From assembly GCF_050920415.1 (NCBI RefSeq), contig NZ_CP169309.1: a DNA stretch of 64,000 nt, one strand, 5' to 3'. Source of the DNA: Escherichia coli. Lineage in GTDB: Bacteria > Pseudomonadota > Gammaproteobacteria > Enterobacterales > Enterobacteriaceae. Made by a program: the position numbers. This document shows positions 48,801 through 51,800 of this stretch, in pieces; positions within the stretch are counted from its first letter, which is position 1, and each line of letters begins with the position of its first letter.

Positions 48801-51800
48801 TTCACATACCTGGGTGATTCAGGCACTGGAATTTGTATGGCAAACACAGATGAACAAAAGAAAGCCATAAGGAAGATAAAATTTCGCACAGGACTTCCTC
48901 GCTTAATGAGCATTAGCATTCTGGCTAAAATCTATTGTTGGGGTTTTACTCACAGCGGCGACATCATCCGGTAAATAATTTTTCTTCGGTGTGTAATCCA
49001 TGACTTTTGCGGTTAACACTGCGGGGAATTTGCGGATAGTGACATTATATTGTTCGATGGCTTTAATATATCTTCCTCGCGCAACGGCAATTCGATTTTC
49101 ACTTCCTTCGAGCTGTACCATCAAATTTTGATAGAGTTCCTGGGCCTTTAGCTCAGGGTAACGTTCACTAATTATCGTTAACTGACCGAGAGTGCGAGAC
49201 ACCTGCGCCTGGGCCTGTTGCCAGACTTGTAATTTTTGTTCATCCCCCGGAGTTTGCTGAAGATCGCTACTGGCGCGATTAGCCTGACTACGTGCCAATG
49301 TTACGGCTTCCAGTACCTCTTGTTCATGGCTGGAATAACCTTTAATACTAGCGACAAGATTAGGAATAAGATCGGCGCGACGTTGATATTGATTTAATAC
49401 CTCAGACCAGGAAGCGTTAACCTGCTCATCATAGGTTTGAATATCGTTATATCCACAGCCTGATAAATTGAAAATAAATATAATTACGATGAATATTCTG
49501 AGCATGGTTAAATTCCTTTTAATTAATTCCTTAAAACATAATACGCCACTTCATTTTATTCTTTATGATCTAATCCACTTTTTGCCTTAAACCTGCCTGT
49601 AACAGAATGTTAATAAGACATGATTGTTGTGGCAGGATCTGCAATAATTAACAATTATCCACTTCACAGAGAATGCTATGCAGTACCCGATTAACGAGAT
49701 GTTCCAGACCCTGCAAGGTGAGGGTTACTTTACCGGCGTCCCCGCCATTTTTATTCGTTTACAGGGATGCCCGGTCGGCTGTGCCTGGTGCGACACCAAA
49801 CACACCTGGGAAAAGCTTGAGGATCGGGAAGTCTCCCTTTTCAGCATTCTGGCGAAGACCAAAGAGAGTGATAAGTGGGGGGCGGCGAGCAGTGAAGATT
49901 TGCTGGCTGTCATTGGTCGTCAGGGATACACCGCGCGGCATGTGGTGATTACGGGTGGTGAGCCTTGCATTCATGATTTGCTGCCACTGACTGACCTGCT
50001 CGAAAAGAACGGTTTTAGCTGCCAGATCGAAACCAGCGGTACTCATGAAGTACGCTGCACGCCGAATACCTGGGTTACCGTATCGCCAAAGCTGAACATG
50101 CGCGGCGGCTATGAAGTGTTGTCACAGGCACTGGAGCGAGCCAACGAAATCAAGCATCCAGTGGGACGCGTACGTGATATTGAAGCACTGGATGAACTAC
50201 TGGCAACGCTGACCGATGATAAACCACGAGTCATTGCACTGCAGCCAATTAGCCAGAAGGACGATGCCACACGTTTGTGCATTGAAACCTGTATTGCGCG
50301 TAACTGGCGTTTATCGATGCAAACACATAAATATTTAAATATTGCCTGATTAAACATTTATAAGCGTTATAAATGGGTGGAACCTGTAAAGACTTCCACT
50401 CATTTATATTCTTTGTCGCCTCTGAAAAAACTCCATTTTGCCCATTCTGGACTAATCATTATCATTCTCTACAAATTCTCTGGCGTTAATTTTTCGTTGG
50501 AGTGAAAATTATTGCAGTGAAGTTTGGTAGATTTTAGTGGGTATAGAGTTATTTTAAATATTTACTTTTTTAATCAATGGATTAAGTGTTCTTTAACATA
50601 ATGGATGTGTTGTTTGTGTGATCCTGTAAAGTTGGTAGATTGTGACTGGCTTAAAAAATCATTAATTAATAATAGGTTATGTTTAGAGAGTTCCCCACGT
50701 CAGCGGGGATAAACCGCTATACGAAGTTATTAGGTCCGAAGAGGAGTTGAGTTCCCCACGTCAGCGGGGATAAACCGTTTACGTGTTATCGCGCACCGGC
50801 GACGGTGTGGAGTTCCCCGCGCCAGCGGGGATAAACCGATTCAGCAAATAGCGAATTTCATAAATATGATGTGTTCCCCGCGCCAGCGGGGATAAACCAC
50901 CATATAACCCGTTATCTCTTTCTCAAGTTTTTATATTAGCTGTACTTGTAATAAGCAACATATCCACATAACACCTCATGTTCAAAATAGTTCCCCATGC
51001 CAGATAAGTTCACAATTATCGATACAAAAAATCAAATTTAATCAAAGTGTTATATGTATAATCCTTAAACCGTTAAGAAATTTTAATATATTATTTTTTT
51101 AATATTAATTAATGCCTGTTAATTTTTTCTTTAGAATAACAGTGTATTTTTTAAGCTTGTTATTCATTGATTAAGTAATAAATCTGGAAGTTTGTCTTTG
51201 TTTTGAGGCTAATGAGTGGTTTTACATAACCGCCTCTATACGCTGTTGATGAATAGTTCTTATGAATAAAGATATCCAGTTCATACTTTAAGTGAAAATT
51301 GATAAAGTGCGATTCGTATTGTCTTTTATTCTAAAGACATCGAGTGTAGTTAATATTCCTTGTAAAAACAGGGATAAACCGAACTAGTTAAAGTTTTTAT
51401 TATGTTCCCTGCATCAGCGGGGATAAACCGGACTTGTTATCATTTTTTAAGTTGTCGAACTTATGTTCCCCGCGCCAGCGGGGATAACCATTCAGGTATG
51501 TTCAGGCCGGGCAGTTTCCCGCCCGGTCTTCCTCACTTACGCATTCGACCAGCTCTGGATCGAATCTGCATTCCCCAACTCACCATGCATCACTTCATAC
51601 GATTTTTTCAGGATCACATCAGTGTGTTTGGTTAGGTCTTTGAAAATGCCTTTATTCATCGCGTCGTAGCGTTTGGCATTGCTCTCAATCGGCATAAAGA
51701 TATCTTTCACGCGAACCATTTTGTCGACAGCCGTTGCGTAATCCGGGTATAGCCCCAGACCTACCGCTGTATTAATCGCGGCCCCCAGACTTGCGCAACC

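What the first reader, a model, noticed from the sequence alone, without database searches (positions are those of the whole stretch)
50900..51490. Decayed CRISPR repeat remnants and a second minimal array in an AT-rich tract next to ygcE
Downstream of the array there are repeat-like fragments (50988-51012, 51353-51381) and a two-repeat, one-spacer unit (51402-51490) with point changes and a 1-nt deletion, separated by strongly AT-rich sequence. This looks like a fossil of a longer array or a second leader-array unit (the CRISPR 2.2/2.3 organisation), recording past deletion or decay at the locus.
Basis: seen in the sequence. Interest (0 to 1): 0.35.

Follow-up and report, generated by a model that had tools for sequence, protein, structure and literature searches.

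The report
Known E. coli CRISPR2.2 remnant array
This is the small, frozen CRISPR2.2 mini-array and the decayed repeats beside it, found between queE and ygcE in most E. coli including K-12; it is real but already described, so it is ordinary.

Summary
After the four-repeat I-E array (50688-50899) comes a 502-nt tract of 27% G+C. It holds two repeat-like fragments, 50988-51016 and 51353-51381, both scoring above every one of 300 shuffles. A repeat-spacer-repeat unit follows (51402-51490), and its last repeat lacks one base.

K-12 MG1655 has the same layout almost base for base, and 4175 of 5426 complete E. coli genomes carry it. [quoted passage not shown]

Comparison within the genus adds detail. 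The last repeat and the ygcE hairpin after it also end the single arrays of E. albertii, E. whittamii and Escherichia sp. MOD1-EC7003. CRISPR2.2 is therefore the stranded far end of an old array. It now changes only by deletion.

The "second leader" alternative is not supported. Where the AT-rich tract came from is unresolved.

One thing remains unexplained. Positions 51161-51490 are at least 99% identical in 3282 genomes, while the flanks differ by 5-12%.

Verdict: already known, low interest.

The parts
50350..50687 (+). Leader2.3 of the active array (context)
   Evidence: It lies between the queE stop (50347-50349) and the first repeat and has 30% G+C. Homologous leaders sit next to queE in K-12, E. 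albertii, E. whittamii and E69.
50688..50899 (+). CRISPR2.3 array: 4 repeats and 3 spacers (context). The last repeat, 50871-50899, ends in A instead of G.
   Evidence: Four matches to the I-E consensus with at most 3 mismatches against 0 expected. Repeat starts are 61 nt apart.
50900..51401 (.). AT-rich tract separating CRISPR2.3 from the core of CRISPR2.2 (502 nt, about 27% G+C)
   Evidence: Composition. Present in 4175 of 5426 E. coli genomes. No homologue in phages or true plasmids. No similarity to leaders beyond shuffles.
50988..51016 (+). Fragment A: a decayed I-E repeat, best preserved in its 5' half
   Evidence: Local alignment score 20 against a shuffle maximum of 19. It forms no hairpin. 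Different strains keep 10-17 of 29 consensus bases, so it is still decaying.
51353..51381 (+). Fragment B: the degenerate first repeat of CRISPR2.2 as the literature counts it
   Evidence: Local alignment score 22. 19 of 29 to the consensus and 21 of 29 by my count to the next repeat. It folds into the canonical 7-bp hairpin at -7.9 kcal/mol. Together with the 17 nt that follow (51353-51398) it is a 49-nt-offset, 74%-identical copy of 51402-51447 (family D5).
51382..51401 (+). Short 20-nt first 'spacer' of CRISPR2.2 (AACTAGTTAAAGTTTTTATT)
   Evidence: Read. It resembles the start of the 32-nt spacer (D5). It is unchanged in the 7 E. coli strains that retain it, and its last 6 bases fall within the RM9872 deletion.
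51402..51430 (+). CRISPR2.2 repeat with 4 point changes
   Evidence: 25 of 29. Canonical hairpin with one G-U pair, -12.1 kcal/mol.
51431..51462 (+). The invariable 32-nt spacer GACTTGTTATCATTTTTTAAGTTGTCGAACTT
   Evidence: At least 99% identical over the aligned part in 4048 of 4062 genomes that have it, and about one site per genome. No credible phage or plasmid protospacer.
51463..51490 (+). Degenerate terminal repeat (28 nt; one A lost from ATAAACC, last base A)
   Evidence: hairpin -15.1 kcal/mol. The same ...GGGGATAACCATT[C/T]AG[G/C]TATGTTCAGG junction ends the arrays of E. albertii, E. whittamii and Escherichia sp. MOD1-EC7003.
51491..51536 (-). Short stretch between the terminal repeat and the ygcE stop, holding a G+C-rich hairpin (51507-51526), probably the end of the ygcE transcript
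   Evidence: Folds at -20.6 kcal/mol, z = -3.5 on the minus strand. The stretch aligns at 87-96% in the outgroup Escherichia, and a related hairpin is visible at the CRISPR-free site of L037. The terminator scan did not call it because no T-run follows.

Best explanation
The region is the CRISPR2.2 part of the E. coli CRISPR-II locus. It is the stranded, leader-distal end of an old Escherichia type I-E array.

The array once ran as one piece from leader2.3, beside queE, to a degenerate terminal repeat just before the ygcE transcript-end hairpin. In the E. coli lineage about 0.5 kb of AT-rich DNA now separates the leader-proximal part (CRISPR2.3), which still takes up spacers, from the last two or three repeats.

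I-E spacer integration happens at the leader-repeat junction. The stranded piece has no such junction, so it gains nothing, and its spacer is frozen across the species. It changes only by loss: repeat-to-repeat recombination or IS-mediated deletion. Fragment A, inside the tract, is a repeat under no constraint that is visibly mutating away.

Shown here: the identity with K-12 CRISPR2.2, the spread in the population, the shared terminal repeat in outgroups, the deletion variants, and the lack of leader similarity.

Inferred: that the single array is the older state, and that the tract arose by insertion or rearrangement inside the array rather than by in-place decay of five or six repeat-spacer units. 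I prefer insertion or rearrangement, at roughly 55 to 30.

If read-through transcripts exist, the 32-nt spacer would be flanked by an intact 5' handle (AUAAACCG) and an intact Cas6e hairpin, so a normal crRNA could form. That is untested.
For: K-12 MG1655 carries the same elements in the same order, nearly base for base.

The tract plus CRISPR2.2 is in 4175 of 5426 complete E. coli genomes, always on the chromosome and about once per genome.

Literature: CRISPR2.2 and CRISPR2.3 are separated by 0.5 kb, and leaders adjoin only CRISPR2.1 and CRISPR2.3 (PMC3903273, PMC3737337). [quoted passage not shown]

The spacer is at least 99% identical in 4048 of 4062 genomes.

Outgroups found through ygcE synteny:
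- Citrobacter, Enterobacter, Cedecea and others have queE and ygcE about 40-100 nt apart with no CRISPR between them.
- E. albertii, E. whittamii and Escherichia sp. MOD1-EC7003 each have a single array that ends in the same 1-nt-deleted repeat followed by the ygcE hairpin. The leader2.3 homologue is seen in the first two; the MOD1-EC7003 contig ends before that point. None has the tract.

Loss by recombination is seen directly:
- Strain RM9872 lacks exactly one 61-nt repeat-spacer unit.
- E69 has a 49-nt deletion that fuses fragment B to the next repeat.
- OkiPb01688 has an IS1-associated deletion.

The adjacent CRISPR2.3 is or was recently active. Its leader-proximal spacer matches phage P1 32 of 32 and is absent from the nearest relative. 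That relative has a full I-E cas operon.
Against: The direction of change is not proven. Outgroups could have lost the tract by repeat-repeat deletion, which is demonstrably easy.

No donor for the tract was found in phages or plasmids, and I saw no IS ends or target duplications.

Fragment A lies inside the tract, and its distances from neighbouring repeats (117 and 365 nt) are close to multiples of 61. That fits in-place decay.

Positions 51161-51490 are far more uniform across E. coli than neutral flanks. A purely functionless fossil does not predict this.
Confidence: 0.85

Rival explanations
1. In-place decay. The whole 502-nt tract is what is left of five to eight repeat-spacer units of the original array, mutated towards A+T until only fragments A and B are recognisable.
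For: Both fragments are on the same strand as the arrays. The distances 50871 to 50988 (117 nt) and 50988 to 51353 (365 nt) are close to 2 x 61 and 6 x 61. Fragment A is decaying differently in different strains. The first half of the tract evolves faster than synonymous sites: 28% against 17.8% in the E69 comparison.
Against: No other repeat scores above shuffles. Repeats on both sides, in CRISPR2.3 and at 51402 and 51463, keep 25-28 of 29 bases, so the middle would need a much higher decay rate than its neighbours of the same or greater age. The 336 nt between the fragments has 25% G+C.
Confidence: 0.3
2. Second leader-array unit. The AT-rich tract is, or was, a leader that serves CRISPR2.2, so the locus consists of two leader-array modules.
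For: The 336-nt stretch between the fragments is leader-like in length and composition: 25% G+C against 338 nt and 30% for leader2.3. It sits upstream of CRISPR2.2 in the right orientation.
Against: It shows no similarity to leader2.3 or to the K-12 leader2.1 beyond shuffles: global z = 1.6, local score 17 against a null maximum of 22, and the last 80 nt not similar. There is no excess of promoter-like sites, 5 found against 4.9 expected. The spacer next to it never changes. Published descriptions assign leaders only to CRISPR2.1 and CRISPR2.3.
Confidence: 0.07
3. A constrained functional element. Positions 51161-51490 (the second half of the tract plus CRISPR2.2) are kept by selection, for example as a fixed crRNA with a host function or as a cis-acting or small-RNA element. 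They are not a neutral fossil.
For: At least 99% identity to the window in 3282 of 4167 genomes. By contrast, 20 of 4158 genomes reach that level for the first half of the tract, 14 of 4574 for leader2.3 and 2 of 5372 for adjacent ygcE coding sequence. Among 7 strains there are 16 segregating sites in 330, against 101 in 649 for the non-coding flanks, Fisher p = 4e-7. CRISPR2.2 differs by only 5.6% from E69, where ygcE third positions differ by 17.8%. Fragment B keeps the hairpin through two double changes.
Against: In E69 the second half of the tract has diverged 15.7%, about the synonymous rate. This fits a recent spread of one haplotype within E. coli better than long-term constraint. The hairpin-preserving changes in fragment B have a chance probability of roughly 0.3 by my own counting. 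There is no Rfam match, no second chromosomal match for the spacer, no convincing ORF and no promoter excess. Deletion variants exist in nature.
Confidence: 0.1

Closest known systems
CRISPR2.2 of the E. coli CRISPR-II locus (ygcE-ygcF/queE interval), as named by Diez-Villasenor, Almendros, Mojica and co-workers (PMC3903273, PMC3737337, PMC4489801)
   Same: Same flanking genes and the same 0.5-kb separation from CRISPR2.3. Same three repeats (51353, 51402, 51463) and two fixed spacers. Nearly identical to K-12 MG1655. No leader of its own.
   Different: Nothing essential. This strain differs from K-12 by 1 base in the second half of the tract, 1 in CRISPR2.2 and 12 in the first half of the tract. 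Fragment A (50988-51016) is not mentioned in the passages I could read. The original 2010 description was not available to me.
[quoted passage not shown]
   Same: The 28-nt repeat 51463-51490 is altered only at its 3' end. It is the last repeat before the flanking gene in four Escherichia species.
   Different: In E. coli the same locus has two such ends. CRISPR2.3 also ends in a repeat with a changed last base (50899 A).
Single CRISPR2.2-3 arrays of some E. coli and of E. albertii and E. whittamii
   Same: Same leader2.3, same terminal repeat and same junction with the ygcE hairpin.
   Different: They lack the AT-rich tract, fragments A and B, and the invariable 32-nt spacer.
Orphan or vestigial CRISPR arrays in general
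   Same: Few repeats, no adjacent leader or cas genes, and no spacer turnover.
   Different: In the nearest relative genome a complete I-E cas operon lies about 15 kb away. The repeats still form the Cas6e-type hairpin, so processing in trans is not excluded.

Membership tests
E. coli CRISPR2.2 (CRISPR-II locus) | Lies between ygcE and ygcF/queE | tested here: met
   queE is at 49678-50349 (+) and ygcE at 51537-53015 (-). The gene order matches K-12 and other E. coli.
E. coli CRISPR2.2 (CRISPR-II locus) | Separated from CRISPR2.3 by about 0.5 kb | tested here: met
   From 50900 to 51401 is 502 nt, or 453 nt up to fragment B. The literature statement was read.
E. coli CRISPR2.2 (CRISPR-II locus) | Three type-2 (I-E) repeats and two invariable spacers | tested here: met
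   Repeats at 51353, 51402 and 51463. The 32-nt spacer is at least 99% identical in 4048 of 4062 genomes. The 20-nt spacer is unchanged in the 7 E. coli strains that retain it. Definition read.
E. coli CRISPR2.2 (CRISPR-II locus) | Sequence corresponds to the K-12 reference copy | tested here: met
   Against K-12: 1 of 241 differences in the second half of the tract, 1 of 89 in CRISPR2.2 and 12 of 261 in the first half. Alignment.
Active type I-E CRISPR array | 29-nt repeats of the I-E consensus that form the 7-bp Cas6e hairpin | tested here: met
   The repeats at 51402 and 51463 fold into the canonical hairpin at -12.1 and -15.1 kcal/mol, and fragment B at -7.9. Fragment A does not fold.
Active type I-E CRISPR array | Regular 61-nt repeat-spacer period | tested here: inconclusive
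   51402 to 51463 is 61 nt, but 51353 to 51402 is 49 nt, and fragment A is isolated.
Active type I-E CRISPR array | Adjoining leader that directs integration and transcription | tested here: not met
   No similarity to leader2.3 or leader2.1 beyond shuffles. No promoter excess. The sequence just upstream of 51402 is another degenerate repeat, not a leader junction.
Active type I-E CRISPR array | Spacer turnover between strains | tested here: not met
   The same spacer is found in more than 4000 genomes. The only variants seen are deletions.
Active type I-E CRISPR array | Cognate cas genes in the genome | not testable with these tools
   The window ends at 64000, before the expected cas3 position near 67.7 kb. 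The nearest relative, MFDS1022581, has cas3 through cas2e intact about 15 kb beyond ygcE. This is indirect evidence for the strain in the window.
Active type I-E CRISPR array | Transcribed and processed into crRNA | not testable with these tools
   This needs RNA data. The sequence only shows that an intact 5' handle and 3' hairpin would flank the 32-nt spacer.

The most novel reading that the evidence does not exclude
The 330 nt at 51161-51490 (the second half of the tract plus CRISPR2.2) are not a neutral fossil. They may be held nearly constant across E. coli by selection, for example because the fixed spacer yields a crRNA put to a host use, or because the AT-rich DNA carries a cis-acting or small-RNA function. 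Alternatively one haplotype may have swept the species by recombination very recently. Either would explain why this non-coding stretch is more uniform than the coding sequence next to it.
Probability: 0.1. Interest if true: 0.5.

Novelty: already known. Interest (0 to 1): 0.12.

Why it matters
It matters little as a discovery, because this layout has been described in the literature I could read since at least 2013 and is present in K-12.

It has three practical uses. NCBI's annotation pipeline (PGAP) leaves CRISPR2.2 and the tract unlabelled in every genome listed, so a scan will keep flagging them. The fixed spacer and terminal repeat mark the old end of the Escherichia CRISPR-II array and help orient comparisons of the locus. 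The unusual uniformity of 51161-51490 is a cheap population-genetic question that could be settled with existing genomes and RNA-seq.

Tried and rejected
- **More decayed repeats in the tract.** Only fragments A and B beat shuffles. The candidate ending at 51072 scored at the null median.
- **The tract as a copy of leader2.3 or the K-12 leader2.1.** Only short, scattered AT-rich matches on both strands, and global and local scores within shuffles.
- **The tract as phage or plasmid DNA.** No phage match. The three 'plasmid' matches are 4.8-4.9 Mb chromosomes filed as plasmids.
- **A protospacer for the fixed spacer.** Nothing credible in phages (best E = 0.03, 86% identity with flanking repeat bases included) or in true plasmids. 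There is no second site in E. coli chromosomes.
- **Rfam.** No family at or near its gathering score. The I-E repeat is not picked up by any CRISPR-DR model above threshold.
- **Promoters and terminators.** No excess over shuffles.
- **Small ORFs.** Only 20-31 aa ORFs lie wholly within the tract, with no supporting features. The 68 and 77 aa ORFs run through the repeats into the antisense strand of ygcE.
- **Compensatory changes in fragment B as evidence of selection.** Rejected as weak. All five stem changes are C-to-T or G-to-A, and the chance that both G-to-A changes fall opposite already changed C positions is about 0.3 by my own count.
- **The 2010 Microbiology paper that first named CRISPR2.2.** It could not be retrieved.

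Full report
**What is in the sequence**

The window holds queE at 49678-50349 (+) and ygcE at 51537-53015 (-). Between them lie, in order:

- an AT-rich leader (50350-50687);
- four type I-E repeats with three spacers (50688-50899);
- a 502-nt tract of about 27% G+C (50900-51401);
- a repeat-spacer-repeat unit (51402-51490).

The two repeats of that unit start 61 nt apart. The first, ATGTTCCCTGCATCAGCGGGGATAAACCG, matches the consensus at 25 of 29 positions. The second, ATGTTCCCCGCGCCAGCGGGGATAACCA, is 28 nt, with one A missing from ATAAACC and a final A.

Two fragments inside the tract resemble the repeat on the same strand:

- 50988-51016 matches 15-16 of 29, mainly in its 5' half.
- 51353-51381 matches 19 of 29, and its last 11 bases are exact.

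In a local alignment of the consensus against the tract they scored 20 and 22. The best score on either strand in 300 dinucleotide-preserving shuffles never exceeded 19. A third candidate ending at 51072 scored 14, the null median, and I do not count it.

**What it is**

The K-12 MG1655 ygcE-queE interval has the same elements in the same order, almost base for base. It differs only in having six spacers in the main array.

The tract plus mini-array occurs in 4175 of 5426 complete E. coli genomes. It is always chromosomal, occurs about once per genome, and is not annotated in any genome listed.

The literature already names it:

[quoted passage not shown] Leaders sit next to CRISPR2.1 and CRISPR2.3 only (PMC3903273, PMC3737337).

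The three repeats are 51353, 51402 and 51463. The two spacers are the 20-nt 51382-51401 and the 32-nt 51431-51462. I confirmed the invariability: the 32-nt spacer is at least 99% identical in 4048 of the 4062 genomes that have it.

**Where it came from**

I used ygcE as a synteny anchor across one genome per bacterial species.

- In Citrobacter, Enterobacter, Cedecea, Buttiauxella and others, queE and ygcE are about 40-100 nt apart with no CRISPR between them.
- E. albertii, E. whittamii and Escherichia sp. MOD1-EC7003 each carry a single array with no AT-rich tract. A leader2.3 homologue precedes it in the first two; the MOD1-EC7003 contig ends before that point. Each array ends in the same junction, ...GGGGATAACCATT[C/T]AG[G/C]TATGTTCAGG, followed by the ygcE hairpin.

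This fits the general rule that terminal repeats are degenerate at the 3' end (PMC2886076). CRISPR2.2 is the far end of that array, cut off from its leader.

A divergent lineage deposited as E. coli E69 also has the tract, so the split predates that lineage.

**How it behaves now**

Every structural variant I saw is a loss:

- RM9872 lacks exactly one 61-nt repeat-spacer unit.
- E69 has a 49-nt deletion that fuses fragment B with the next repeat.
- OkiPb01688 has an IS1-associated deletion running from the tract through ygcE.

Fragment B and the 17 nt after it form a 49-nt-offset, 74%-identical copy of the next repeat plus the start of its spacer. This points to an old internal duplication (family D5).

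Fragment A is decaying in real time. Strains keep between 10 and 17 of its 29 consensus positions.

The neighbouring CRISPR2.3 shows recent activity. Its leader-proximal spacer (50717-50748) matches phage P1 32 of 32, at a position annotated as the lox site in related P1 and P7 records. That spacer is missing from the closest genome, MFDS1022581, which is otherwise identical over the 4.8 kb compared. MFDS1022581 has a complete I-E cas operon about 15 kb past ygcE.

**Is the tract a second leader?**

It resembles a leader in composition and length. The 336 nt between the fragments has 25% G+C, against 338 nt and 30% for leader2.3.

It shows no sequence similarity to leader2.3 or to the K-12 leader2.1 beyond shuffles. 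Promoter-like sites are not in excess. The sequence directly upstream of 51402 is another degenerate repeat rather than a leader-repeat junction. I rate this reading at about 0.07.

**Insertion or in-place decay?**

This is unresolved.

- For in-place decay: the fragments share the arrays' orientation, and their distances of 117 and 365 nt are close to multiples of 61.
- Against it: nothing else in the tract resembles a repeat, while repeats on both sides keep 25-28 of 29 bases.
- For insertion or rearrangement: three outgroup species lack the tract.
- Against it: no donor sequence exists in the phage or plasmid collections, and repeat-repeat deletion could have removed the tract from the outgroups.

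I lean towards insertion or rearrangement, at roughly 55 to 30.

**Could it still work?**

The repeats at 51402 and 51463, and even fragment B, fold into the canonical 7-bp hairpin. The 32-nt spacer would be flanked by an intact AUAAACCG handle and an intact 3' hairpin. The missing base lies beyond the part of the last repeat that a crRNA would use.

A read-through transcript could therefore yield a normal crRNA. I found no target for it in phages, plasmids or the E. coli chromosome. Whether it is transcribed cannot be tested here.

**An unexplained feature**

Positions 51161-51490 are unusually uniform. The table gives identity to the window sequence across E. coli genomes.

| Segment | Genomes at 99% or more | Rest of the distribution |
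|---|---|---|
| 51161-51490 | 3282 of 4167 | 884 at 95-99%, 1 lower |
| First half of tract (50900-51160) | 20 of 4158 | 1414 below 95% |
| Leader2.3 | 14 of 4574 | 4288 at 90-95% |
| Adjacent 330 nt of ygcE coding sequence | 2 of 5372 | 5063 at 95-99% |

Among seven diverse strains, mean pairwise divergence is 1.5-1.8% in this block. It is 5.5-6.8% in the non-coding flanks and 6-10% at third codon positions. Segregating sites number 16 of 330 against 101 of 649, Fisher p = 4e-7.

Against E69, however, the second half of the tract has diverged 15.7%, close to the 17.8% at ygcE third positions. Only CRISPR2.2 itself stays low, at 5.6%.

This pattern fits a recent spread of one haplotype within E. 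coli better than long-standing constraint. I cannot exclude selection on the mini-array. This is the basis of the "novel case", which I rate at about 0.1.

**Verdict**

The finding is real and was read correctly. It is a textbook feature of the E. coli chromosome that has already been described, so it is already known and of low interest (0.12).

This analysis adds four things:

- a statistical check of the fragments;
- the genus-level origin of the terminal repeat;
- natural deletion variants;
- the diversity contrast across the tract.

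Noticed in passing
window 50717-50748: The leader-proximal spacer of the main array matches P1-like phages 32 of 32 in 3 records and 31 of 32 in 17 more, at a position annotated as the lox recombination site in related P1 and P7 records. The nearest relative genome (MFDS1022581, otherwise identical over the 4.8 kb compared) lacks this spacer, so it looks like a recent natural acquisition.
   Followed up: partly
window 50688-50716 and 50749-50777: The two leader-proximal repeats carry CCCCACGTCAG instead of CCCCGCGCCAG. The G-to-A change puts an A opposite C in the hairpin stem. The newest repeat copies the variant, as expected if the first repeat is duplicated at each acquisition.
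   Followed up: no
window 51161-51490: This non-coding block is at least 99% identical in 3282 of 4167 E. coli genomes, while the first half of the tract, leader2.3 and neighbouring ygcE coding sequence are mostly 90-99% identical to the window. Either a sweep or selection could explain it.
   Followed up: partly
window 51537-53015 (ygcE) and 49678-50349 (queE): The window's ygcE allele differs from K-12, 042, O157:H7 and other E. coli at 11-13% of third codon positions. That is as far as from the separate species Escherichia sp. MOD1-EC7003 (11.0%). Only 2 of 5372 genomes are at least 99% identical in its 3' 330 nt. The CRISPR-II flanks appear to carry deep, recombining haplotypes.
   Followed up: partly
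window about 46000-49520, upstream of queE: Some strains (MFDS1022581, O157:H7, PK8261, RM9872) have LemA-family and TPM-domain genes upstream of queE. K-12, 042 and OkiPb01688 have yqcG-ygcG there instead. The window is nearly identical to MFDS1022581 in the adjacent DNA, but I did not confirm the gene content in the window itself. Direct repeats 1162 nt apart (for example 46821-46873 and 47983-48035) suggest duplicated TPM-type genes with Gly-rich ends.
   Followed up: no
L037 4860-4997 in reverse-complement coordinates as used (E. coli SCPM-O-B-8794): This genome has a 138-nt queE-ygcE spacer with no CRISPR, no leader and no tract, yet keeps a related ygcE hairpin. It is a CRISPR-free version of the site within a genome labelled E. 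coli.
   Followed up: no
L038 439-1748 in reverse-complement coordinates as used (Klebsiella spallanzanii): A long I-E-type array of about 22 repeats lies about 2.5 kb upstream of the queE start, not between queE and ygcE. I-E arrays evidently sit at different positions around queE in different genera.
   Followed up: no
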